From the IMG/VR virus record IMGVR_UViG_2563366799_000001: 14,064 bases of DNA; one strand, written 5' to 3'. Below the pieces are notes generated by a model, which was not told where the DNA came from, did not search any database, and was given only the letters and a program-made list of their open reading frames with translations. Of the stretch, positions 1 to 14,064 are shown in pieces. This DNA is from a virus (lineage: Duplodnaviria > Heunggongvirae > Uroviricota > Caudoviricetes). A program made the translations under genes and the position numbers. Within the stretch, counting starts at the first letter, position 1. Each line of letters opens with the position of its first letter.

Positions 1-95
1 TCAAGGCATTTACGGGAGAAAAAATCGGCTCAAACATGAAGAAATGAAATGACTGAGTCAGCCGAGAAGAATTTCCCCGCTTATTCGCACCTTCC
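1..95 (-). mobile_element. IS5 terminal segment (partial copy, body extends beyond window start)
   Basis: Bases 1..95 are the reverse complement of the IS5 end that begins GGAAGGTGCGAATAAGCGGGGAAATTCTTCTCGGCTGACTCAGTCATTTCATTTCTTCATGTTTGAGCCG, and of window bases 13973..14064. Flank next to the IS end is TTAG (96..99), compatible with the IS5 YTAR target. Confidence 0.9.
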
Positions 96-856
96 TTAGC
101 AGCTCTAATACCGCCCTGAATCGCAAGCCCTGTATGGCAATTTGACATTGAGCATGATTGCCATCTGTGCAAGGGACCTCCATTAATCGAAACTTCCAGC
201 AGATCTTTATCTCCTTTCATCCTGACCCCTTCATACAACATATCAAGACGCTCAACAATCAATCCTGTTGGAGGTTCCATTTTTAGAACGAGGGCAAACT
301 CTCCTGGCCCACGTCGTATTGTTATACGCGGGCCGGTACACTCCACATCCCAATTGTCTGATTTAGCTTTCCATTCATTTTCATCTATCAGTAAAGTCTC
401 CTTACCAATAGAATTACAGAAAATTCCTGATAAAAGCATCGGTCCATGTGGTATGGGTGAAGGTTTCACAGAAAGAATGGGTTGTTCGTTGACTACAATC
501 AAATTTTGACAGTTATGAAACGTCACTCCTGCAAATTTTACTGTTATAGGCTCATTATGAAAATCAAACATTTCATTTGCAAAACCAGCCTGTAAGCACT
601 TGGGATTTCTGTCAGCTATTTCCACTGTCTGTGCTGAAAGTCTACCACGAGCTCTTTTTTGATTGCATTGGGAGCAAAGAAGTGTCATTCCATTCGGATC
701 ATGTATTTTGGCATCAACGAAGTCAGGTTTAAAATGCTCATAATCATAAAATCCAAATCCACAAATTACACAGCCAAAGCCGCACCTTTGCCTTATCTGA
801 CGTTTTATTGTCTCAGGTATTCTTCTTGAGAGCCCGTGTTTATTAATATTGTCCAT
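96..856 (-). CDS. HNH-motif nuclease-like protein, 3' end disrupted by IS5 (reading frame runs into the IS without a stop)
   Basis: Minus-strand ATG at 856, first in-frame ATG after an upstream stop. The N-terminus carries CGFGCVIC ... YDYEHFKP ... DPNGMTLLCSQCNQK, an HNH-like Cys/His/Asn pattern. About 253 native codons, then the frame continues into IS5. Low GC relative to neighbours. Absent from the ORF track because it has no stop inside the window. Confidence 0.6.
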
Positions 857-1030
857 ATGGTTAGTACGCTATAAGTTTGTTTCTATAATTTTACCACAAT
901 AGATAAGTTTGTATCAGAAATCGCTATATGGAGTGAGCGGAATATTTATATTATTCATACAATTGCTCTCCCGTACGCAGCCCGCACTTCCGTCATCGCA
1001 GAATGACGGAAGCCTTACTAACTAGCGCCT

Positions 1031-1354
1031 TTATTGAAACAGATTCTGAGGTAAATGCGGCAATACTCGACTCCACTTATCATCCTGCCACGGCTGAAGT
1101 TTTACATGTGCCGTTTCTCGGGCGAGGATTGCTCGCGCTCTGTTGAGTATCTGGGGATATTCTTGCTCGATGGAAGTGAAGTGACCAGCCTCACCATGCT
1201 CCGCATCCTGAAGAAGATGAGTAACGTTCTGGTAGGCAATTAACATCACATTCCCTGCTCGCCATAACCAGGCGAGTGTGCAAAGTTCGTTATCAGTGAA
1301 TTGTTTTGTGATTGGGAATTGTTGAACTGCTAGAACGAGAACGCCAGCATCCAT
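1031..1354 (-). CDS. hypothetical protein (107 aa)
   Basis: Complete ORF in the track with a plausible AGGGA ribosome-binding site upstream; no recognisable motif. Lies between the HNH gene and the recombinase on the same strand. Confidence 0.35.
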   Translation of the reverse strand: MDAGVLVLAVQQFPITKQFTDNELCTLAWLWRAGNVMLIAYQNVTHLLQDAEHGEAGHFTSIEQEYPQILNRARAILARETAHVKLQPWQDDKWSRVLPHLPQNLFQ

Positions 1355-3569: not shown

Positions 3570-4014
3570 AGCATATTCTTTCCTGTTCAAACTGGAGAGA
3601 ATTGTACTACAGATTGAACTCAACTCACCGGTTTCATCATTGTGTATCCATTGATGTTCTTTTGTATACCCTCAATATCCGTTTCATCGCGGTACTCCGG
3701 CGACACTCCTTAAAAATCAGGTTCGGCTCACCTTTCCTGCCCGTTCTCCCCGGGTAGCAAACCGATAATACACCGTTCGCCAGTCCTTACTATCAATGAC
3801 CAAGATTCCTGCCCATATCATTTTAGCCGCAGCCTAATTTATGCTGGTTATTGTTACGTGTGAATTCAGTTAGCTGCATAAATTGTCACGGAAGTGATAC
3901 ATCGATATTATCGAGAAATTCACTCGAATTTATACGATTGAAACTGCACTTATATCTGTTTTAAATACTCCGAACACTCTTTACAACAACTGTGTGAAAA
4001 TGGAGATAATTAAA

Positions 4015-4743
4015 ATGAAAAAGGGTTTGGCTATTTCATTCATTGCCGCCGTGTGTGCATTTGCTGCAAATGCGAGTGCTGAGGAAAGTAAAAACGGGTT
4101 TTATCTAACCGGTAAAGCCGGTGCCTCTGTGGCGTCGTTATCAGACCAGCGTTTTCAGTATGATGAAGGCGATTGGTCAACTGGATTTAAGGGCAGCAAC
4201 AACCATGACACGGCGTTTAGTGGTGGTATCGCAGCGGGTTATGACTTTTACCCACAGTTCAGTATTCCTGTTCGTACGGAGCTTGAATTTTATGCCCGCG
4301 GAAAGGCTGATACAGAATACAATCTTTTTAAGGACGACTGGGTGCGAGCTGACATGAAGAATGAGGTGTCAGTCAACAGCCTGATGTTGAACGCGTACTA
4401 TGACTTCCGGAACGACAGCGCATTCACCCCTTGGGTGTCCGCAGGGATTGGTTATGCAAGAATTCATCAGAAATCAACGGGTGTCATCACCTTCGATAAT
4501 GGATACGGATACAGTGACCGCGCATCTGATTCCCGTTCAGATTCTTCTGATAACTTCGCATGGAGCCTTGGTGCTGGCGTCCGCTATGACGTAACTCCAG
4601 ATGTCAGTCTGGACATCAGTTATCGCTACCTGGATGCAGGTGATGCCAATGTGACTTATACCGATGATTGGGGCGATAAATATAAATCAGATGTTGATGT
4701 AAAAAGTCATGACATTATGCTTGGTGTAACCTATAACTTCTGA
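4015..4743 (+). CDS. outer-membrane beta-barrel protein with signal peptide
   Basis: Start at internal ATG 4015 (MKKGLAISFIAAVCAFAANASA-EE signal peptide with AxA cleavage motif) preceded by GGAG. Alternating aromatic/hydrophilic beta-strand pattern and C-terminal ...GVTYNF, the terminal-Phe signature of outer-membrane barrels. Confidence 0.8.
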   Translation: MKKGLAISFIAAVCAFAANASAEESKNGFYLTGKAGASVASLSDQRFQYDEGDWSTGFKGSNNHDTAFSGGIAAGYDFYPQFSIPVRTELEFYARGKADTEYNLFKDDWVRADMKNEVSVNSLMLNAYYDFRNDSAFTPWVSAGIGYARIHQKSTGVITFDNGYGYSDRASDSRSDSSDNFAWSLGAGVRYDVTPDVSLDISYRYLDAGDANVTYTDDWGDKYKSDVDVKSHDIMLGVTYNF

Positions 4744-5237: not shown

Positions 5238-5935
5238 ACACTTGCTCCTTTCAGCCCAAACTTCGCTTTGATTTCTGCGATCTTCGCCAGAGCCTGAACA
5301 CGATTAAGCGGTCTCCCGCCCATAACAGGAAGTTGTTTTACTGGTTCAGGTATCGCCTCACCACGGTTAATTCGCGCTGTCATACAGGCCAGTTCATCGG
5401 CAGCCTTGCGCCGTAATTCCGCATCAGTCAGCGCATTGGCCCGCATGTTCTGATACAGGTTGGTAACCAGCCAGTAGTGCGCGTTTGATTTCCACGGATA
5501 AGACTCTGCATCCGGATACAGGCCACGTTTCCGGCAATACTCGTAAACCATATCAACCAGCTCGCTGGCGTTTGGCAGCCCGGCGGTAACGGATGCTTCT
5601 TCCCGGCACCAGGCAACAAACTGCCCGGGTGATGGCAGGAATGGTCGATTCTGCCGACGGGCTACGCGCATTCCTGCGTTAACCTGTTCCATCGTGGTGA
5701 TCCCGTTTTCCCGGAAAGCCAGAACCCACTGGCGGCGGATTTCGTTCAGTTCGTTCTGGTCCCGGTTAGCCAGGCTCGCCGGGAAAGTTGCCAGTAACTG
5801 GCTGAACACACCATTGATGATCTGCGCTACCTGTTGTACCTGCGGCTTTTCGTCGTACTGTTCCGGCATGTTGTTGGCGATCCGGCGCATCTGCTCACGG
5901 TCAAAGTTAACCATCTGTGCGGCGATGTTTTTCAT
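5234..5935 (-). CDS. P: lambda-type replication protein P (DnaB helicase loader)
   Basis: 233-aa translation MKNIAAQMVNFDREQMRRIANNMPEQYDEKPQ ... KFGLKGASV matches lambda P almost exactly from recall. GGGGTGG ribosome-binding site; start overlaps the stop of the upstream O fragment. Confidence 0.95.
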   Translation of the reverse strand: MKNIAAQMVNFDREQMRRIANNMPEQYDEKPQVQQVAQIINGVFSQLLATFPASLANRDQNELNEIRRQWVLAFRENGITTMEQVNAGMRVARRQNRPFLPSPGQFVAWCREEASVTAGLPNASELVDMVYEYCRKRGLYPDAESYPWKSNAHYWLVTNLYQNMRANALTDAELRRKAADELACMTARINRGEAIPEPVKQLPVMGGRPLNRVQALAKIAEIKAKFGLKGASV

Positions 5936-6397
5936 AAATCCACCCCGTAAATCCAGTCAGTGTTTGTCAGGTCGAGTTTTGATTTTCCGGCTGTCACGCC
6001 AGCCTGTTGCTTGTTACGGTTGATTTCGAGTTGGGTCCACTTGTCGCGGAGTTTGGCCGGACTTAGCACGTTACCGGACCAGAAGTTGTCCTGGCATGCC
6101 CAGCGGAACAGCACGCACATGTCGCGGTGGTTACGGCCGTCACGTTCACGCATCAGACGGATATCGTTAGCCCACCCTGCAAAATTCGGTTTTCTGGCTG
6201 ATGGCGCGATGGTCTTCACCATGTCAAACATCCACTCTGCGGCGGTCAGGTCTTCTGCTGTCCCCCACTTGCTGCCGCTCTGAATCGCAGCATCCGCTTT
6301 CACCACAGGAAGGTCGTTTTCTGGCAGGTCAGAGGATTCGCCAGAATTCTCGGACGAATAAGGTTTTATATTGTCTTTTGTTAGTTTGTCTTTTGTG
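5932..6397 (-). pseudogene. O: replication protein O, C-terminal (P-interacting) part only; N-terminal origin-binding domain deleted
   Basis: Translation from ...[59 protein letters not shown] ... TDWIYGVDL matches the lambda O C-terminal half. The first ~35 codons of the 191-aa track ORF (5932..6507) are antisense to gam and are not O. Confidence 0.8.
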
Positions 6398-6400
6398 TTT
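6344..6400 (-). promoter_or_regulatory. remnant of ori-lambda AT-rich segment (iteron array absent)
   Basis: In O sense: ACACAAAAGACAAACTAACAAAAGACAATATAAAACCTTATTCGTCCGAGAATTCTGGCGAATCC, resembling the A/T-rich part of ori-lambda including the GAATTC site inside O. No TCCCTCAAA-type iterons upstream; the sequence switches to gam at about 6405..6415. Confidence 0.45.
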
Positions 6401-6414
6401 ACCTGATTCGGGTA

Positions 6415-6534
6415 AGTGCCTTTACCCGTGCATTTGATGACGATGTTGAGTTTCAGGAGCGCATGGCAGAACACATCCGGTACATGGTTGAAACCATTGC
6501 TCACCATCAGGTTGATATTGATTCAGAGGTATAA
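6415..6534 (+). pseudogene. gam: gam 3' fragment (last ~40 codons, no start)
   Basis: Plus-strand frame reads ...[39 protein letters not shown], matching the lambda Gam C-terminus. Ends 5 nt before the bet start, as in lambda. Confidence 0.75.
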
Positions 6535-6539
6535 AACGG

Positions 6540-7325
6540 ATGAGTACAGCACTCGCAACGCTGGCTGGGAAGCTGGCTGAACGTGTCGGCATGGATTCTG
6601 TCGACCCACAGGAACTGATCACCACTCTTCGCCAGACGGCATTTAAAGGTGATGCCAGCGATGCGCAGTTCATCGCATTGTTGATCGTCGCCAACCAGTA
6701 CGGCCTTAATCCGTGGACGAAAGAAATTTACGCCTTCCCTGACAAGCAGAACGGCATCGTTCCGGTGGTGGGCGTTGATGGCTGGTCCCGCATCATCAAT
6801 GAAAACCAGCAGTTTGATGGCATGGACTTTGAGCAGGACAATGAATCCTGCACATGCCGGATTTACCGCAAGGACCGTAATCATCCGATCTGCGTTACCG
6901 AGTGGATGGATGAATGCCGCCGCGAACCATTCAAAACCCGTGAAGGCAGAGAAATCACGGGGCCGTGGCAGTCGCATCCTAAACGGATGTTACGGCATAA
7001 AGCCATGATTCAGTGTGCCCGTCTCGCCTTCGGATTTGCGGGTATCTATGACAAGGATGAAGCCGAGCGCATTGTCGAAAATACCGCATACACTGCAGAA
7101 CGTCAGCCGGAACGCGACATCACTCCGGTTAACGATGAAACCATGCAGGAGATTAACACTCTGCTGATTGCCCTGGACAAAACATGGGATGACGACTTAT
7201 TGCCGCTCTGTTCCCAGATATTTCGCCGCGACATTCGCGCATCGTCGGAACTGACACAGGCCGAAGCAGTGAAAGCTCTTGGATTCCTGAAACAGAAAGC
7301 CTCTGAACAGAAGGTGGCTGCATGA
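6540..7325 (+). CDS. bet: Red beta single-strand annealing protein (Bet)
   Basis: 261-aa translation [38 protein letters not shown] ... EQKVAA matches lambda Bet from recall; stop overlaps the exo start. Confidence 0.96.
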
Positions 7326-8002
7326 CACCGGACATTATCCTGCAGCGTACCGGGATCGACGTGAGAGCTGTCGAACAGGGGGATGATGCGTGGCACAAAT
7401 TACGGCTCGGCGTCATCACCGCTTCAGAAGTTCACAACGTGATAGCAAAACCCCGCTCAGGAAAGAAATGGCCTGACATGAAAATGTCCTACTTCCACAC
7501 CCTGCTTGCCGAGGTTTGCACCGGTGTGGCTCCGGAAGTTAACGCTAAGGCGCTGGCCTGGGGAAAACAGTACGAGAACGACGCCAGAGCCCTCTTTGAG
7601 TTCACTTCCGGCGTGAATGTTACTGAATCCCCGATCATCTATCGCGACGAAAGTATGCGCACCGCCTGCTCTCCCGATGGTTTATGCAGTGACGGCAACG
7701 GCCTTGAACTGAAATGCCCGTTTACCTCCCGGGATTTCACGAAATTCCGGCTCGGTGGTTTCGAGGCAATAAAATCGGCTTACATGGCCCAGGTGCAGTA
7801 CAGCATGTGGGTGACTCGAAAAGATGCCTGGTACTTTGCCAACTATGACCCGCGCATGAAGCGTGAAGGCCTGCATTATGTCGTGATTGAGCGGAATGAA
7901 AAGTACATGGCGAGTTTTGACGAGATGGTGCCGGAGTTCATCGAAAAAATGGACGAGGCACTGGCTGAAATTGGTTTTGTATTTGGGGAGCAATGGCGAT
8001 GA
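7322..8002 (+). CDS. exo: lambda exonuclease (Red alpha, 5'-3' dsDNA exonuclease)
   Basis: 226-aa translation [47 protein letters not shown] ... FVFGEQWR matches lambda Exo from recall. Confidence 0.96.
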
Positions 8003-9280: not shown

Positions 9281-9602
9281 GGCCTGTCAGTTTCTCAAGA
9301 TATCCAGACCTACCGCTACCAACTGGATACGAACAGGCCGCCTACAGGCAACACGCAAAGACCCCACTAAACTAAAATCTCCTTACCTCACAACACGACA
9401 AGCCTGCATTGCGGCGCTTCAGTCTCCGCTGCATACTGTCCAGGTGAGCGCGGGTGATGGCATAACAGAGGAAAGAAAATGTCACTCTTCCGCAGAGGTG
9501 AAATATGGTACGCCAGTTTCACATTGCCGAACGGTAAAAGATTTAAACAGTCTCTTGGAACAAAGGACAAAAGGCAGGCGACAGAACTCCATGACAAGCT
9601 AA
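9252..9602 (+). CDS. xis: excisionase (P22-type Xis, 116 aa)
   Basis: Internal ATG 9252 ([32 protein letters not shown]..., helix-turn-helix) preceded by GAGGT. Sits immediately upstream of int and overlaps it by about 124 nt in another frame. Confidence 0.65.
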
Positions 9603-10642
9603 AGGCTGAAGCATGGCGGGTCAGCAAACTTGGTGAAATACCTGATATAACGTTCGAGGAAGCGTGTGTCAGGTGGCTTGAAGAGAAAGCACATAAAAAA
9701 TCACTGGACGATGACAAAAGCCGGATCGGATTCTGGCTTCAACATTTCGCAGGAATGCAACTAAGAGACATTACTGAATCAAAAATTTATTCAGCAATGC
9801 AGAAAATGACGAACCGGCGTAATGAGGAAAACTGGAAACTCAGGGCAGAAGCATGCAGAAAAAAAGGGAAACCTGTTCCAGAATACAAGCCAAAACCAGC
9901 GTCTGTTGCAACGAAGGCTACGCATCTTTCATTTATAAAAGCCCTACTAAGAGCCGCAGAGCGTGAATGGAAAATGCTGGATAAGGCACCAATTATTAAA
10001 GTGCCTCAACCAAAGAATAAACGGATCCGCTGGCTGGAGCCCCATGAAGCACAAAGGCTGATTGATGAATGTCCGGAGCCATTAAAGTCTGTTGTTGAAT
10101 TTGCACTGGCAACAGGCTTAAGACGCTCGAACATCATCAACCTTGAATGGCAACAAATAGATATGCAGCGCCGGGTGGCATGGATAAACCCGGAAGAGAG
10201 TAAATCAAACCGCGCAATCGGCGTTGCGCTGAATGATACTGCATGTCGCGTATTGAAAAAACAAATCGGGAATCATCACCGTTGGGTATTTGTGTACAAG
10301 GAAAGCTGTACCAAACCAGACGGAACGAAAGCGCCAACAGTAAGGAAGATGCGGTATGACGCAAACACAGCCTGGAAAGCGGCGCTGAGACGGGCTGGTA
10401 TTGATGATTTCAGATTTCACGACTTGAGACACACCTGGGCAAGTTGGCTGGTTCAAGCCGGAGTCCCGTTGTCAGTGTTACAGGAAATGGGAGGCTGGGA
10501 GTCTATCGAAATGGTTCGTCGATATGCTCACCTTGCACCTAATCACCTTACCGAACACGCACGGCAAATAGACTCGATCCTGAACCCATCGGTCCCAAAT
10601 TTGTCCCAGTCAAAAAATAAGGAAGGTACTAATGATGTGTAA
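9479..10642 (+). CDS. int: P22/DLP12-type tyrosine integrase
   Basis: 387-aa ORF. N-terminus [34 protein letters not shown]; catalytic-domain motifs [12 protein letters not shown] (HxxR) and VRRYAHL (Tyr). 3' end abuts a tRNA-Thr 3' fragment, the P22-family att arrangement. Confidence 0.93.
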
Positions 10643-10656
10643 CTTATTGATTTAAA

Positions 10657-10708
10657 TGGTGCCGATAATAGGAGTCGAACCTACGACCTTCGCATTACGA
10701 ATGCGAAG
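10657..10708 (-). other. 3' fragment of tRNA-Thr(CGU) (thrW-type att core); 5' half of the tRNA absent
   Basis: Reverse complement reads ...TCGCATTCGTAATGCGAAGGTCGTAGGTTCGACTCCTATTATCGGCACCA: anticodon stem-loop with CGU anticodon, variable loop, T arm, acceptor 3' strand and CCA. Sequence to the right does not continue as the D arm or 5' acceptor strand. Confidence 0.8.
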
Positions 10709-10790
10709 TTTTTATATTTTAACTGCTTGAACAACCATCAGAAATCACAAATTTATCATTTTAAATCATAATATTAAAACAAAAAACCTG

Positions 10791-10888: not shown

Positions 10889-12208
10889 ATGGCGCTTTCA
10901 AGACAAAAACTAACCTTCGAACGAATTCGAAGATTTACTTTACCTGAAGGGAAAAACCAAGTTTTCCTTTGGGATACGGACGTAACAAGCTTGGCATGTC
11001 GAGCAACTCGTGGAGCAAAAGCCTTTGTATTCCAAAGCCTGTATGCGGGAAAAACCCTTCGCATGACCATTGGCAACATTAACGATTGGAGGATTGATGA
11101 TGCGAGGGCCGAAGCCAGGCGACTGCAAACATTAATCGATACTGGGATAGATCCGCGTATAGCTAAGGCGGAAAAAATTGCTGAAGCGGAATCACAGCAG
11201 GCTGAATCTCGTAAAACGAAGGCAACCTTTTCAAGCGCTTGGGAAGATTATCTTGATGAATTGAGAACCGGAATCAGCGCAAAAACTAAACGCCCCTACT
11301 CTGCACGCTACATTGCCGATCACGTTAACTTGTCCAGTCGTGGAGGCGAAAGTAAAAAAAGAGGCCGGGGCCCAACCTCACCTGGGCCACTGGCTAGCCT
11401 GCTCGACCGACCATTATCAGAACTAACACCAGAGAACATTGCCGAATGGCTAAGTACAGAGAGACAAAATCGGCCTACCGTCACTGCTCATGCCTACCGT
11501 CTGTTGCGTGCATTCATCAAATGGGCTAATTACCAGAAAAAATATCAGGGAATAATCGATGGCGATCTTGCACAAGATCATAACGTGAGAAAAATGGTTC
11601 CAATATCAGCGAGCAAAGCGGGAGATTGCTTACAAAAAGAACAGCTCAAAAGCTGGTTCAGTGCCGTGCGTAGCCTCAATAATCCCATTGCATCAGCCTA
11701 TCTCCAAGTGCTTTTGCTCACCGGTGCACGGCGTGAAGAAATTTCCTCACTTCGCTGGTCTGACATAGATTTCAAATGGTCAAGCATGAGAATTAAAGAC
11801 AAGATCGAAGGCGAGCGAATTATCCCCCTCACTCCCTATGTTTCTGACTTGTTACGCTCACTGATGGAGATCCCCAATCGTGGTACAAACGAGGAGAATT
11901 GGGTTTTCAGAAGTAACAGCAAAAGTGGCAAAATTATTGAACCGCGTTCAGCACATAATAGAGCATTAACTCGCGCGGAGTTACCACATATCAGCTTGCA
12001 CGGATTGCGCCGTAGTTTTGGGACCCTCGCTGAATGGGTCGAAGTACCAACAGGTATTGTTGCGCAGATTATGGGCCATAAGCCTAGCGCTCTTGCTGAA
12101 AAGCACTATCGCCGCCGTCCATTAGATTTGCTAAGAAAATGGCATGAAAAAGTTGAATTATGGATCTTAGAAGAAGCAAAAATAAAAAACAACGTTGATA
12201 AGCGTTGA
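10889..12208 (+). CDS. P4-type tyrosine integrase
   Basis: 439-aa ORF. C-terminal catalytic motifs LHGLRRSFGTLAEW and KHYRRR (Tyr); long N-terminal arm-binding-type domain. Unrelated in sequence to the upstream P22-type Int. Confidence 0.88.
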   Translation: MALSRQKLTFERIRRFTLPEGKNQVFLWDTDVTSLACRATRGAKAFVFQSLYAGKTLRMTIGNINDWRIDDARAEARRLQTLIDTGIDPRIAKAEKIAEAESQQAESRKTKATFSSAWEDYLDELRTGISAKTKRPYSARYIADHVNLSSRGGESKKRGRGPTSPGPLASLLDRPLSELTPENIAEWLSTERQNRPTVTAHAYRLLRAFIKWANYQKKYQGIIDGDLAQDHNVRKMVPISASKAGDCLQKEQLKSWFSAVRSLNNPIASAYLQVLLLTGARREEISSLRWSDIDFKWSSMRIKDKIEGERIIPLTPYVSDLLRSLMEIPNRGTNEENWVFRSNSKSGKIIEPRSAHNRALTRAELPHISLHGLRRSFGTLAEWVEVPTGIVAQIMGHKPSALAEKHYRRRPLDLLRKWHEKVELWILEEAKIKNNVDKR

Positions 12209-12225
12209 TTTTATCAAATATCAAC
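12194..12225 (+). repeat. GTTGAT direct repeats (10-bp spacing) followed by inverted copies, at the 3' end of the integrase gene
   Basis: GTTGAT at 12194 and 12204, then ATCAA at 12213 and ATCAAC at 12220, forming an imperfect palindrome that overlaps the int stop codon. Same motif as the array at 10791..10820. Confidence 0.55.
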
Positions 12226-12247
12226 AACTTACATAAAATCACATGTG

Positions 12248-12275
12248 TTGACAGAAATTTTTTTTCAGTTATCTT
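12248..12275 (+). promoter_or_regulatory. putative sigma70 promoter for the downstream operon
   Basis: Consensus -35 TTGACA at 12248..12253, 16-bp T-rich spacer, -10-like TATCTT at 12270..12275. Not verified. Confidence 0.3.
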
Positions 12276-12322
12276 TTATTACTGCTAACTACATTCACTC
12301 ACTAAGCAGGAGATTAACTACA

Positions 12323-12748
12323 GTGACTAACCCAATAACTGTATCAAGAGAAGACCGAAGTGCGGAAATCAGAGCGAGATGGGGTTTACATCCGACTAAA
12401 AACAAAAGTTCTAATTTTTGGGAAACAACAATTCAGCGTTTTAATAATAGTAGTACTGACCGAATACTACCTCTTTGGCACCGTGTTTCAAAACTTTTAG
12501 TTGCTATTAGGAATGTAGTCAATACTATAACATGCCCTTTTCCACCAAAGGGGAATACTTCCCGCTCACGCCGAAGTTCAACAACGTCATCAAAAAACTC
12601 ATCATCATCTTCATCGGATGGTAGTAGTAGCGACCCCGATCCCGATAGAGACCCCATATTCACCCCTTTTCATTTCATTCTTTCATCTCTGTTAAAAACA
12701 ATGATCGTCTTATTTGCCCACATATCAAATGTTGGGGTGATGAAATGA
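12323..12748 (+). CDS. hypothetical protein with Ser/Asp-rich low-complexity segment (GTG start); coding strand uncertain
   Basis: GTG at 12323 preceded by AGGAG 10 nt upstream; stop overlaps the next gene's ATG (ATGA coupling). Contains SRSRRSSTTSSKNSSSSSSDGSSSDPDPDRD. An antisense ORF (12433..12663) with an acidic stretch is an alternative. Confidence 0.3.
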   Translation: MTNPITVSREDRSAEIRARWGLHPTKNKSSNFWETTIQRFNNSSTDRILPLWHRVSKLLVAIRNVVNTITCPFPPKGNTSRSRRSSTTSSKNSSSSSSDGSSSDPDPDRDPIFTPFHFILSSLLKTMIVLFAHISNVGVMK

Positions 12749-12966
12749 GCGATATCAAACATCAAAAACCCTCTCAGTCACAACTAATTTCTACCCGCGA
12801 GTTAGCTAATATTATTGGCTATGAAGTACAAACTATTCGAGCTTGGCTTTGCAAAGACAAACTGCCTAATGGTTTACCGCGACCGAAGAAAATTAAAAAC
12901 CGACACTATTGGTCACGTAAAGACATTGATAGATACCTATTAACCTTCTCAGTATATAGTAACTAA
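12745..12966 (+). CDS. AlpA-like helix-turn-helix phage regulatory / excisionase-family protein
   Basis: 73 aa. ISTRELANIIGYEVQTIRAWL then LPRPKKIKNRHYWSRKDIDRYL, the same pattern as AlpA (HTH followed by FPKK...W...EIDEWL). Position just downstream of a P4-type integrase is typical. Confidence 0.6.
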   Translation: MSDIKHQKPSQSQLISTRELANIIGYEVQTIRAWLCKDKLPNGLPRPKKIKNRHYWSRKDIDRYLLTFSVYSN

Positions 12967-12977
12967 TAGAGGCCTCC

Positions 12978-13003
12978 CCCGGCTATTCTAAAGAATAGCC
13001 GGG
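12978..13003 (+). terminator. perfect 11-bp-stem hairpin (possible terminator or protein-binding palindrome)
   Basis: CCCGGCTATTC-TAAA-GAATAGCCGGG, 12 nt after the AlpA-like stop; followed by TTAGTTAAT (weak U tract). Confidence 0.4.
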
Positions 13004-13088
13004 TTAGTTAATACAAACCTTCCATTAACAATGGGGGGAGATTAATACTATTTATCACATCTCACATTAACAAAATTCAAGGTCACAT

Positions 13089-13853
13089 ATGAAAAAACGC
13101 ATCACTTTCAGCGTAAACAATAGTTCTACTATTGATGCAATTGACGACTATAGCAATGCAAAAGGATACTCCAGGTCAGAGGTGATATCATTTTTATTAA
13201 ACGCCACAGTCCCAGCATTGAATAAAATAACATCGCAATATCATATAGCTCAAACTTTGGAGTCAACATTAGGCTGTATTTTTGAAGAGAAGGCCCCGTC
13301 AATAGCACGGGGGGAGCCAAAATTAACTTACGAAGAGTTTTTTCATTCCGTCTGGAACACTCACATTCGACACCGGAACGAGGTTATCGACCAGAATTTT
13401 TATGCACACAAAATATCTCATGATAAGATGGGGAAGAGTGAAAAAAAATTAATTCATGAAAAGCTCACATACATTATAAAAAGCTTCAATGTAAAAAAAG
13501 CAATTTTTATTTACACAGATCGGCGCGTGAACCACAAACATCTAATTGCAGGAGGGTTGTCAAATATCATACTGATAAAGGAAACAGTTTACGATGGTTG
13601 TTTTTTTGATTTGAGCAGCATTGTGATTATGCCAATCTTTGAACTTATTACATTTGGAATTGAAGAGGTATTGAAAAGAAATAAAATCCACCATAAACAA
13701 TCATGCTATTGCTGGATACCAATTTATTACACAAATGATCTAGCGGTAATGGTCCCGGTGATTGCCGAAGGCGATACACCTCAAAAGGCGATGAAAGGAG
13801 GAGATGCCATCATTATTAACCCCTTTAACGGTGAAGTAAACCATACTTTCTGA
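13089..13853 (+). CDS. hypothetical protein, N-terminal ribbon-helix-helix-like motif plus ~200-aa domain of unknown function
   Basis: 254-aa ORF with AAGG ribosome-binding site. N-terminus MKKRITFSVNNSSTIDAIDDYSNAKGYSRSEVISFLL fits the CopG/Arc-type RHH pattern (beta-strand then helices). Remainder unrecognised. Markedly AT-rich relative to the prophage genes. Confidence 0.65.
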   Translation: MKKRITFSVNNSSTIDAIDDYSNAKGYSRSEVISFLLNATVPALNKITSQYHIAQTLESTLGCIFEEKAPSIARGEPKLTYEEFFHSVWNTHIRHRNEVIDQNFYAHKISHDKMGKSEKKLIHEKLTYIIKSFNVKKAIFIYTDRRVNHKHLIAGGLSNIILIKETVYDGCFFDLSSIVIMPIFELITFGIEEVLKRNKIHHKQSCYCWIPIYYTNDLAVMVPVIAEGDTPQKAMKGGDAIIINPFNGEVNHTF

Positions 13854-13935
13854 TACCAATGTTAAGCATAACCACTTAGTTGCATACATCTCGACAGTAT
13901 GGAGTTAGTACCTAATAGCTTGATGAGGGTAAAAG

Positions 13936-13972
13936 ATGCCTACTAACAAAGCAAAATCAAAGAAAATTCTAG
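13936..13972 (+). pseudogene. 5' stub of a gene (12 codons) cut off by IS5
   Basis: GAGGG ribosome-binding site, then ATG at 13936 encoding MPTNKAKSKKIL; the IS5 end starts at 13973 and the frame stops shortly inside it. Confidence 0.35.
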
Positions 13973-14064
13973 GGAAGGTGCGAATAAGCGGGGAAATTCT
14001 TCTCGGCTGACTCAGTCATTTCATTTCTTCATGTTTGAGCCGATTTTTTCTCCCGTAAATGCCT
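13973..14064 (+). mobile_element. IS5 terminal segment (partial copy, body extends beyond window end)
   Basis: GGAAGGTGCGAATAAGCGGGGAAATTCTTCTCGGCTGACTCAGTCATTTCATTTCTTCATG..., the IS5 terminus; exact inverted copy of bases 1..92. Preceded by CTAG (YTAR target). Confidence 0.92.

What the first reader, a model, noticed from the sequence alone, without database searches (positions are those of the whole stretch)
96..856. Low-GC HNH-motif protein at the prophage edge, C-terminus replaced by IS5 read-through
The N-terminus has a compact HNH-like signature (CxxxCxxC ... EHFKP ... N ... CSQCNQK) followed by ~180 residues with no recognisable domain. The gene is AT-rich, next to a serine recombinase and emrE in the moron-like end of the prophage, and its reading frame runs straight into IS5, so the native C-terminus and any downstream partner are lost or displaced. 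Stand-alone HNH proteins in this position are often defence or exclusion nucleases.
Basis: partly seen in the sequence, partly recalled or inferred. Interest (0 to 1): 0.55.

Follow-up and report, generated by a model that had tools for sequence, protein, structure and literature searches.

The report
Prophage hotspot HNH nuclease, IS5-clipped
This is a real gene for a two-part protein, a DNA-cutting HNH domain joined to a conserved domain of unknown fold, sitting in a prophage slot that holds the anti-phage gene BstA in other strains, so it is probably an uncharacterised anti-phage nuclease, and the IS5 insertion clipped only its last seven codons.

Summary
A minus-strand ORF starts at 856 and runs into an exact IS5 end (window 1-95; TTAG target at 96-99).

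The damage is small. The intact allele (WP_001301145.1, 260 aa, in 82 of 5,426 complete E. coli genomes) shows that only the last 7 residues are replaced, by about 36 IS5-coded ones. The remaining 759 coding bases are 100% identical to intact alleles. No downstream partner was lost, because none exists.

The protein has two domains:

The beta domain almost always follows this HNH domain: 1,588 clusters across many bacterial phyla. No neighbouring gene is conserved.

The gene behaves as stand-alone mobile cargo. It occurs in prophage accessory slots and on plasmids, and as a single-gene Vibrio cholerae superintegron cassette. In DLP12-like prophages its slot is variable, and in 121 other genomes that slot carries a BstA homologue.

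Best reading: a new single-gene anti-phage nuclease family, with the C-terminal domain as sensor or gate. The function is inferred, not shown.

The parts
1..95 (-). Left terminal 95 bp of IS5. Its inverted repeat GGAAGGTGCGAATAAG reads on the minus strand. The rest of the element lies beyond the window.
   Evidence: 100% identical (0 mismatches in 95) to the end of IS5B of E. coli K-12 (L100 2592-3786).
96..99 (.). TTAG (CTAA on the other strand): the IS5 target site at the junction.
   Evidence: Read directly from the sequence. Intact alleles read ...cattagcagct... without interruption at this point.
2..97 (-). Read-through tail: junction codon K254 plus IS5-coded residues. The predicted total is 36 extra residues, giving a 289-aa chimera, if the IS5 copy matches the K-12 one.
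   Evidence: Translation. Chimera built with K-12 IS5B...GGIRAA|KEGANKRGNSSRLTQSFHFFMFEPIFSPVNALNQPI*.
98..856 (-). Native coding sequence, codons 1-253 of the 260-codon gene (allele WP_001301145.1).
   Evidence: 0 mismatches to strain 210205630 over window 96-1000. There is 1 mismatch to E24377A, and it lies outside the gene at position 959. The intact protein is shown.
632..856 (-). N-terminal HNH (beta-beta-alpha-metal) nuclease domain, residues 1-75. It carries the Cys4 zinc site (C29, C32, C61, C64), the catalytic H41, the invariant H52, and the metal ligand at N65 (His in 84% of the wider family).
578..631 (-). Helical linker, residues 76-93, containing the invariant P85 and G91.
   Evidence: AF2 secondary structure. 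Conservation.
119..577 (-). C-terminal all-beta domain, residues 94-246. It is acidic (family median pI 4.9, net charge -8). N160 and D170 are invariant and W169 is 92% conserved. The fold has no solved relative.
857..1030 (-). AT-rich upstream region (37.5% GC over 857-1000) that travels only with this gene. It contains a weak sigma-70-like site, corresponding to about window 888-917.
   Evidence: Similarity to prophages with other cargo stops at about L001 9885-9943, which is window 980-1038, at the end of the P22AR_C gene. Promoter-like match at L001 9822-9793; this is a consensus match only.
1031..1354 (-). P22AR_C-domain gene (107 aa), the conserved upstream flank of the variable slot.
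   Evidence: Pfam PF10548, E 5.8e-14. Found next to different cargo genes in about 200 other E. coli genomes.

Best explanation
The gene encodes a stand-alone two-domain nuclease: a zinc-stabilised HNH domain followed by a conserved acidic all-beta domain. It is carried as single-gene cargo in a variable accessory slot of a DLP12-like lambdoid prophage.

It most likely protects the lysogen, and so the prophage, against other phages. The proposed mechanism is that the basic HNH domain cuts DNA, while the C-terminal domain holds it inactive or off the host's own DNA until an infection-associated ligand or protein is bound. Cutting then degrades the invader's DNA or the cell's DNA (abortive infection).

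What is shown: the domain architecture, the intact catalytic motif, the stand-alone mobile distribution, the sharing of one slot with BstA, and the exact IS5 junction.

What is inferred: the anti-phage role, the gating by the C-terminal domain, and the nature of the trigger.

In this window a recent IS5 insertion replaced only the disordered last 7 residues with about 36 foreign ones. The protein may still fold and work, but that is unknown.
For: HNH fold and active site:
- C29, C32, H41, H52 and C61 are invariant, and position 65 is His or Asn, in 70 representatives at 28-46% identity.
- Distant members carry canonical HH...CxxCH motifs and pass Pfam's HNH threshold.

Stand-alone gene:
- No neighbour of 60 aa or more is conserved across 86 loci from many phyla.
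- The immediate neighbours are heterogeneous.

Autonomous mobile cargo:
- A 53%-identical V. cholerae homologue is a single-gene cassette bounded by VCR/attC repeats.
- Members occur on plasmids.
- One is an opposite-strand insert in a Pseudomonas prophage.
- Members occupy the same post-replication slot in Enterobacter and Klebsiella prophages and in phage ST846-OXA48phi9.2.
- One lies beside HicAB in Undibacterium.

Defence hotspot:
- In DLP12-like prophages the slot between the P22AR_C gene and ylcH-ybcN holds one of four cargoes.
- These are this gene (82 genomes), a BstA homologue (PADLOC E 3.6e-121; 121 genomes), a 169-aa unknown (181 genomes), or ybcL-ybcM in K-12.
- BstA is an experimentally shown prophage abortive-infection protein (PMC8585504).

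Precedents:
- Integron cassettes of V. cholerae are rich in single-gene anti-phage systems, two of them HNH-like (bioRxiv 10.1101/2024.07.02.601686).
- Single-protein HNH-plus-sensor defences exist: Cap5, and DS-7 in the supplement of PMC13092281.

Gating role of the C-terminal domain:
- The HNH domain is basic (median pI 9.0, +5) and the C-terminal domain acidic (median pI 4.9, -8) across the family. This fits a regulatory or sensor role better than DNA binding.
Against: - No experiment on any member of this family was found.
- No PADLOC model matches beyond a weak PtuB hit (E 0.047).
- Outside E. coli the neighbours are only modestly enriched in defence genes, and many are housekeeping genes.
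- The gene is co-oriented with the early-right operon, so it could equally be a lytic-cycle gene.
- The C-terminal domain is unusually well conserved across phyla (N160 and D170 invariant). That is atypical for sensors of fast-evolving phage proteins and points instead to a universal ligand.
- The promoter-like site is only a weak consensus match.
- The effect of the IS5-derived tail on function is unknown.
Confidence: 0.42

Rival explanations
1. Type IV-like, modification-dependent restriction. The C-terminal beta domain reads a modified base or another non-self DNA feature, and the HNH domain then cuts that DNA directly. The logic is that of e14-prophage McrA, with the domain order reversed. 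This is still defence, but non-abortive and with a chemical rather than a protein trigger.
For: - No methyltransferase or immunity partner is conserved. That is what a modification-dependent enzyme allows.
- The HNH domain resembles those of EcoKMcrA, TagI, ScoMcrA and VcaM4I.
- The strict cross-phylum conservation of N160 and W169-D170 suits a pocket for a small universal ligand such as a flipped base.
- Sensor-plus-nuclease modularity is the rule for such enzymes (PMC12191111).
- McrA itself is prophage-borne (established knowledge).
Against: - The C-terminal domain is acidic (pI 4.9, -8), which is unfavourable for DNA binding.
Confidence: 0.17
2. A phage-benefiting DNA-processing nuclease of the nin region. 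It would be a structure-specific or host-DNA nuclease used in the phage's own recombination, replication or host takeover, comparable in role to NinG/Rap or RusA.
For: - In E. coli, Enterobacter and Klebsiella prophages the gene is co-oriented with, and lies between, the replication genes and the nin genes ybcN, ybcO and rusA.
- Weak similarity to NinG/Rap profiles: PHROG 5034 at E 0.52 and BFVD NinG hits at E 0.2-0.75.
Against: - The family also occurs where no phage is present: an integron cassette, plasmids, a chromosomal islet beside HicAB, and cyanobacterial, planctomycete and archaeal genomes.
- It is present in only one phage record out of 50,697.
- It is optional within otherwise identical prophages, where it alternates with BstA.
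- The NinG similarity is not significant.
Confidence: 0.13
3. A selfish free-standing homing endonuclease gene. The HNH domain cuts a specific site in gene-less relatives, and the gene spreads by repair of that cut.
For: - Free-standing HNH genes in phage genomes are often homing endonucleases (PMC10055350; PMC12315714 warns that HNH genes are mobile).
- The distribution is patchy, at 1.5% of E. coli genomes.
- GC content is lower than that of the flanking genes.
- The homology break is sharp and falls at gene borders.
Against: - The flanking genes differ completely between hosts, so no common target is apparent.
- The slot holds unrelated alternative cargo (BstA and others) rather than an empty target site.
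- The putative targeting domain is acidic and highly conserved across phyla, whereas homing-endonuclease DNA-binding domains are basic and diverge fast.
- Members are integron cassettes and plasmid genes.
Confidence: 0.1
4. A toxin of an addiction module that stabilises the mobile element, with a small or RNA antitoxin not yet recognised or with in-cis neutralisation by the acidic domain. It would have no dedicated anti-phage role.
For: - Superintegron cassettes and prophage accessory slots are rich in toxin-antitoxin genes (bioRxiv 10.1101/2024.07.02.601686).
- One member sits beside HicAB.
- The acidic domain recalls the acidic immunity proteins of HNH colicin DNases (established knowledge; the link is an inference).
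Against: - No conserved adjacent ORF of 60 aa or more exists.
- Rfam finds no RNA family near the gene in the window or in L001.
- The V. cholerae cassette contains this gene only.
Confidence: 0.07

Closest known systems
Cap5 (HNH-SAVED effector of CBASS)
   Different: The C-terminal domain here is an all-beta fold with no SAVED similarity. No CD-NTase or other signalling gene lies nearby. This HNH domain has a Cys4 zinc site.
EcoKMcrA and related type IV HNH restriction enzymes (TagI, ScoMcrA, VcaM4I)
   Different: The domain order is reversed, with HNH first here. The second domain is unrelated to the McrA N-terminal domain or to SRA, PUA or EVE readers, and it is acidic.
BstA (prophage abortive-infection protein, PMC8585504)
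   Same: BstA occupies exactly the same variable slot of DLP12-like prophages in other E. coli strains. It is also a single gene in the same orientation.
   Different: There is no sequence or domain similarity. BstA has no nuclease motif, and this gene does not match the BstA model.
Sirona and Nemetona (single-gene anti-phage cassettes of the V. cholerae N16961 superintegron; bioRxiv 10.1101/2024.07.02.601686, later Science 2025)
   Same: They are described as single-gene, distantly HNH/NinG-like anti-phage proteins carried in integron cassettes, with Sirona found in 34 genera of Pseudomonadota. A homologue of the present protein is likewise a single-gene V. cholerae integron cassette.
   Different: Their sequences and locus tags could not be retrieved, because the supplement table was cut. 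Homology is therefore untested. The V. cholerae homologue found here comes from environmental strains, and no abundant pandemic-lineage cluster appeared in the listed hits.
DS-7 'SVIR' (WP_225403053.1), a validated E. coli single-gene defence from the DefensePredictor study (PMC13092281)
   Same: It has an N-terminal Cap5-like HNH domain plus a C-terminal beta-rich non-catalytic domain in one protein and is listed there as defence system DS-7. It is a precedent for this architecture acting in defence.
   Different: It is not homologous: hhalign probability is 0.4%. Its C-terminal part resembles a phage baseplate protein (DUF2634), and its HNH domain lacks the Cys4 site.
PtuB (Septu) and retron-associated TIGR02646 HNH proteins
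   Different: Those proteins work with a PtuA ATPase or a retron. No such partner is present.

Membership tests
HNH (His-Me finger, beta-beta-alpha-metal) nuclease superfamily | Beta-beta-alpha-metal fold | tested here: met
HNH (His-Me finger, beta-beta-alpha-metal) nuclease superfamily | Catalytic general-base His at the end of the first strand, and a His/Asn metal ligand on the helix | tested here: met
   H41 is invariant. Position 65 is Asn in the E. coli subfamily and His in 84% of 70 wider-family representatives. Distant members read HH/DH/EH ... CxxCH.
HNH (His-Me finger, beta-beta-alpha-metal) nuclease superfamily | Central structural Asn of the H-N-H motif | tested here: inconclusive
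   No invariant Asn sits at the canonical spacing. The equivalent loop carries the invariant H52 followed by D/N53, and G56 lies five residues before C61. The assignment needs a structure.
HNH (His-Me finger, beta-beta-alpha-metal) nuclease superfamily | Match to the curated sequence model (Pfam PF01844) above its threshold | tested here: inconclusive
   This protein scores 14.2 bits against a cut-off of 21.4 (E 0.049). The distant family member P0170 scores 25.0 bits, above the cut-off.
HNH (His-Me finger, beta-beta-alpha-metal) nuclease superfamily | Metal-dependent nuclease activity | not testable with these tools
   Requires biochemistry.
Anti-phage defence system (single-gene) | Confers resistance to phage when expressed | not testable with these tools
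   No experimental report on this family was found.
Anti-phage defence system (single-gene) | Located in a variable hotspot or island together with known defence genes | tested here: met
   In E. coli DLP12-like prophages the slot alternates with a BstA homologue (PADLOC E 3.6e-121). A homologue is a superintegron cassette. Across other phyla only a minority of neighbours are defence genes.
Anti-phage defence system (single-gene) | Match to a known defence-protein model | tested here: not met
   PADLOC-DB v2.0.0 gives only PtuB at E 0.047. hhalign to DS-7 gives probability 0.4%.
CBASS Cap5 | SAVED sensor domain and an adjacent CD-NTase | tested here: not met
   The C-terminal domain has no SAVED match. 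No cyclase gene lies nearby.
Type IV (modification-dependent) HNH restriction enzymes | A recognised modified-DNA reader domain (SRA, PUA/EVE/ASCH, YTH, McrA-N, winged helix) | tested here: not met
Type IV (modification-dependent) HNH restriction enzymes | Cleavage depends on DNA modification | not testable with these tools
   Requires assays with modified and unmodified phage DNA.
Phage packaging HNH (HK97 gp74 type) | Small HNH protein encoded next to the terminase genes at the cos end | tested here: not met
   In intact prophages nohD and the terminase lie about 7 kb away, beyond the lysis genes. The protein is 260 aa with a large extra domain.
HNH homing endonuclease | A conserved target site in gene-less alleles, or insertion in an intron or intein | tested here: not met
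   The flanks differ in every host. The E. coli slot holds alternative cargo rather than an empty site. Cleavage specificity itself could not be tested.
Septu PtuB / retron HNH | An adjacent PtuA ATPase or a retron reverse transcriptase | tested here: not met
   Neither is present in any locus examined.
Sirona / Nemetona (V. cholerae integron defence cassettes) | Sequence homology to the N16961 reference proteins | not tested
   The reference sequences and locus tags are not available in the held text or supplement.

The most novel reading that the evidence does not exclude
The HNH-plus-beta-domain proteins would be a previously unrecognised, very widespread single-gene immune family: 1,588 or more 50%-identity clusters across Pseudomonadota, Cyanobacteria, Chloroflexota, Planctomycetota, Bacteroidota, Bacillota, Deinococcus and at least one archaeal genome bin. 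Their C-terminal domain would be a new sensor fold. An invariant Asn160/Trp169-Asp170 site would recognise a universal infection signal, either a small molecule or a DNA feature rather than a variable phage protein, and would switch on the fused nuclease.
Probability: 0.3. Interest if true: 0.72.

Novelty: new variant of a known kind. Interest (0 to 1): 0.5.

Why it matters
If the inference holds, this would be a compact 260-residue one-gene immune nuclease with a new regulatory fold. It is spread by prophages, plasmids and integrons across much of the bacterial tree, yet it is absent from Pfam, NCBIfam and PADLOC.

It also points to a new hotspot. The slot between the P22AR_C gene and ylcH-ybcN in DLP12-like prophages swaps BstA, this gene and at least one more unknown gene. 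It could be mined in the way the P2/P4 hotspots were.

For this particular window the practical message is modest. The gene is an ordinary recent IS5 casualty that lost only its last seven codons, and nothing else was displaced.

Tried and rejected
- Sequence searches against solved structures found nothing useful, either with the single protein or with the family profile. The only hits were chance matches.
- The Foldseek afdb50 library was unavailable. The C-terminal domain could therefore be compared only with the PDB and with BFVD using the full model. BFVD gave only HNH-domain hits at E > 0.04, plus non-significant MORN-repeat-like matches.
- I looked for a conserved partner gene by clustering all ORFs of 60 aa or more in 86 loci. 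The only recurrent clusters were antisense shadow ORFs inside the gene itself.
- I looked for a conserved RNA near the gene with Rfam and found none.
- I tried to establish whether the family equals the published Sirona or Nemetona cassettes. The names are absent from the stored supplement, Table S7 is cut, and the Science version is not held. A second protein search seeded with the V. cholerae homologue showed no pandemic-lineage cluster among the 120 listed hits.
- I checked the DefensePredictor tables for WP_001301145 and found no occurrence, though several of those files are cut. Its DS-7 system is an analogue, not a homologue.
- The packaging-HNH, CBASS, Septu and type II R-M readings were rejected because the required neighbours are absent.
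- No complete E. coli genome in the collection carries this IS5 junction. What lies beyond the IS5 is therefore unknown.

Full report
**1. What is in the window**

A minus-strand ORF begins with ATG at 856 and stays open to the left end of the window. The gene is 40.7% GC, while the replication and recombination genes of the same prophage are 52.8% GC.

Window 1-95 is identical (0 mismatches in 95) to the terminal 95 bp of IS5B of E. coli K-12, read on the minus strand. It is followed by TTAG, a typical IS5 target. The reading frame does run from the gene into IS5.

**2. The intact allele and the real extent of the damage**

Window 96-1000 matches 82 of 5,426 complete E. coli genomes at 99% identity or more. 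In E24377A and in strain 210205630 the gene is annotated as a 260-aa hypothetical protein, WP_001301145.1.

- The native part in the window (codons 1-253) has no nucleotide difference from these alleles.
- Only the last seven residues (NDPLYCA) are replaced.
- If the IS5 copy is like the K-12 one, the product is a 289-aa chimera with 36 IS5-coded residues.
- The lost tail has very low model confidence (pLDDT below 50 for residues 256-260).
- The tail is naturally absent from 5 of 35 aligned homologues, and it is not conserved in the wider family.
- The insertion is therefore recent, and it may or may not inactivate the protein.
- No complete genome in the collection has this junction.

**3. 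Position in the prophage**

The element is a DLP12-like lambdoid prophage. In intact relatives the gene order on one strand is: replication O and P, ren, emrE, ylcJ, ybcK (serine recombinase), a P22AR_C-domain gene, this gene, ylcH, ybcN, ninE, ybcO, rusA, ylcG, quuD. The porin, lysis and packaging genes follow.

The gene is therefore mid-prophage. Its downstream neighbours are the ordinary nin genes, not a partner. In this window the integrase (9479-10642) and a tRNA 3' fragment that marks the attachment site (10660-10732) lie about 10 kb away.

**4. What the protein is**

Sequence models say little:
- Pfam HNH scores 14.2 bits, below its 21.4-bit threshold.
- NCBIfam gives nothing.
- PADLOC gives only a weak PtuB hit (E 0.047).
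- PHROGs gives a full-length match to phrog_6544, a family of unknown function.

An AlphaFold2 model built on 35 homologues is confident (mean pLDDT 88, pTM 0.78). It shows a beta-beta-alpha N-terminal domain (residues 1-75), a short helical linker, and an all-beta C-terminal domain (residues 94-246).

- IscB and Cas9 HNH domains

**5. The family**

A first protein search found 307 full-length homologues of about 260 aa. They come from Enterobacteriaceae, Burkholderia, Pseudomonas, Comamonas, Alcaligenes, Vibrio and others, at 50-79% identity. All are named 'hypothetical protein' or 'HNH endonuclease'.

A profile of the C-terminal domain alone was searched against 1.84 billion cluster representatives. 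It found 1,588 proteins at E <= 1e-3 and 833 at E <= 1e-10. In almost all full-length hits the domain starts at residue 75-80, directly behind the HNH domain. A few members have extra C-terminal extensions, such as TPR or CxxCxxCC.

A scan of one genome per species found relatives in 226 species. These span Pseudomonadota, Cyanobacteria, Chloroflexota, Planctomycetota, Bacteroidota, Bacillota, Deinococcus, Verrucomicrobiota, Chlamydiota and a Methanothrix genome bin.

Conservation across 70 representatives at 28-46% identity to the E. coli protein:
- C29, C32, H41, H52 and C61 are invariant.
- Position 65 is His in 84% (Asn in the E. coli subfamily).
- Position 64 is Cys or His.
- In the C-terminal domain P85, N160 and D170 are invariant, and W169 is 92% conserved.

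Distant members show canonical HH/DH...CxxCH motifs, and one passes Pfam's HNH threshold. The catalytic site is therefore intact and under selection. The central Asn of the classical motif cannot be assigned with confidence.

The N-terminal domain is basic (median pI 9.0, +5) and the C-terminal domain acidic (median pI 4.9, -8) throughout the family.

**6. Stand-alone, mobile cargo**

Clustering all ORFs of 60 aa or more in 86 loci gave no conserved neighbour. The only recurrent clusters were antisense shadows of the gene itself, and the next largest cluster occurred in 7 loci. The nearest neighbours are heterogeneous. A few are defence genes (DrmMI, type IIG and type IV restriction enzymes, DpdE, ZorD, a type I specificity subunit, RT-protease, Schlafen/AlbA_2, HicB), but many are housekeeping genes.

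Individual contexts:
- Directly after replication gene P in Enterobacter prophages.
- Between the replication and nin modules in Klebsiella prophages and in phage ST846-OXA48phi9.2.
- An opposite-strand insert in the early region of a Pseudomonas prophage.
- Beside HicAB in Undibacterium.
- At the tail-fibre end of an Alcaligenes prophage, next to an unrelated HNH protein and a DUF4238 protein.
- On plasmids of Pseudomonas, Calothrix, Cereibacter and Photobacterium.
- In V. cholerae, as a single-gene superintegron cassette bounded by VCR/attC repeats, between an acetyltransferase cassette and a glyoxalase cassette.

**7. The hotspot**

The 170 bp upstream of the gene occur only together with it. 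Similarity to other E. coli genomes resumes at the end of the P22AR_C gene. In those other genomes the slot between P22AR_C and ylcH-ybcN, in the same orientation, holds different cargo:
- A 309-aa protein that matches the PADLOC BstA model over its full length (E 3.6e-121), in 121 genomes.
- A 169-aa protein with no family match, in 181 genomes.
- ybcL-ybcM in K-12.

BstA is an experimentally established prophage abortive-infection protein (PMC8585504). This is the strongest contextual argument that the slot is a defence hotspot and that the HNH-beta gene is one of its interchangeable cargoes.

**8. Mechanism**

Shown: an HNH nuclease with an intact active site, fused to a conserved domain of unknown fold; stand-alone; horizontally mobile; sharing a slot with a defence gene.

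Inferred: it is an anti-phage nuclease. Because a partner-less nuclease must be kept off the host's own DNA, the C-terminal domain either gates the nuclease until a trigger is bound or confines it to foreign DNA. Gating would be the Cap5 logic, possibly with the acidic domain masking the basic DNA-binding face. Confinement would be the type IV logic.

I favour gating because of the domain's acidity and its lack of resemblance to known DNA-modification readers. However, the cross-phylum invariance of N160 and W169-D170 suggests a universal small ligand or DNA feature rather than a variable phage protein.

The remaining rivals are less likely, for the reasons given under each: a phage-own nin-region nuclease, a homing endonuclease, or an addiction toxin.

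**9. Comparison with known systems**

The closest structural relatives of the HNH part are Cap5 and McrA-type enzymes. The membership tests for CBASS, type IV readers, packaging HNH, Septu and homing endonucleases were not met.

Two published sets give precedents for this architecture acting in defence:
- V. cholerae integron cassettes include the HNH-like anti-phage proteins Sirona and Nemetona (bioRxiv 10.1101/2024.07.02.601686). Their sequences could not be obtained, so homology is untested.
- The DefensePredictor study lists DS-7, an E. coli single protein with a Cap5-like HNH domain and a beta-rich C-terminal domain (supplement of PMC13092281). It is not homologous to this family (hhalign probability 0.4%).

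**10. Verdict**

The family appears uncharacterised and is a reasonable candidate for a new single-gene defence nuclease with a new sensor fold. In kind it is a variant of known sensor-nuclease fusions. Interest is moderate, at 0.5.

Noticed in passing
L102:2808-3317 (E. coli 88-3493); same slot as window 96-856: A 169-aa protein (WP_000990013.1) with no Pfam or PADLOC match is a third alternative cargo of the P22AR_C/ylcH slot. It is present in 181 complete E. coli genomes and is another untested candidate for this hotspot.
   Followed up: partly
L101:2365-3294 (E. coli 13P460A); same slot: A full-length BstA homologue (PADLOC E 3.6e-121), annotated only as 'hypothetical protein', occupies the slot in 121 genomes. 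The DLP12-like prophage slot behaves as a defence hotspot.
   Followed up: yes
window 3994-4743 (+): An outer-membrane beta-barrel gene (PF13505, E 1.7e-23) lies on the opposite strand between emrE and replication gene P. In strain 210205630 the same gene is flanked by two fragments of ren, so it looks like an inserted accessory gene.
   Followed up: partly
window 5932-6540: The O-like ORF (5932-6507, minus strand) has no Phage_rep_O match. It abuts the oppositely oriented recT (6540-7325) and the YqaJ exonuclease gene (7322-8002). No repressor, cro or N region is present, so the immunity region seems to be deleted and the prophage defective.
   Followed up: no
window 10660-10732 (-): Rfam calls a tRNA here (36.3 bits) but ARAGORN does not. 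Only the 3' half looks like a tRNA. It is probably the attachment-site tRNA fragment next to the integrase (9479-10642) and marks the true prophage end.
   Followed up: partly
window 10889-14064: A second tyrosine integrase (10889-12208, with an Arm-DNA-binding domain) starts a separate AT-rich island right after the tRNA fragment. Its cargo includes a 254-aa ORF (13089-13853) with no Pfam match.
   Followed up: no
L001:8902-8940 (E24377A), downstream of the intact allele: A perfect 12-bp-stem hairpin (AAGTCACCGGAG...CTCCGGTGACTT) lies about 40 bp after the stop codon of intact alleles. It has no T-run. In the window the IS5 insertion has separated it from the gene.
   Followed up: no
L095:1-2161 (V. 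cholerae contig ABWZED010000059.1): Three consecutive single-gene cassettes (GNAT acetyltransferase, the HNH-beta homologue, a glyoxalase-family protein) are separated by VCR/attC repeats. This shows that the family moves as an integron cassette.
   Followed up: yes
L011:7983-10338 (Alcaligenes prophage end): The family member here is followed by an unrelated 245-aa protein with a C-terminal HNH motif and then by a DUF4238 protein. This may be a small cluster of accessory nuclease genes at the tail-fibre end of the prophage.
   Followed up: no
P0145, P0174, P0150 (distant family members): Some members carry extra C-terminal modules after the beta domain: TPR repeats, a CxxCxxCC zinc/iron-chelating domain, or a 400-residue extension with no match. 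This suggests modular elaboration of the family.
   Followed up: partly
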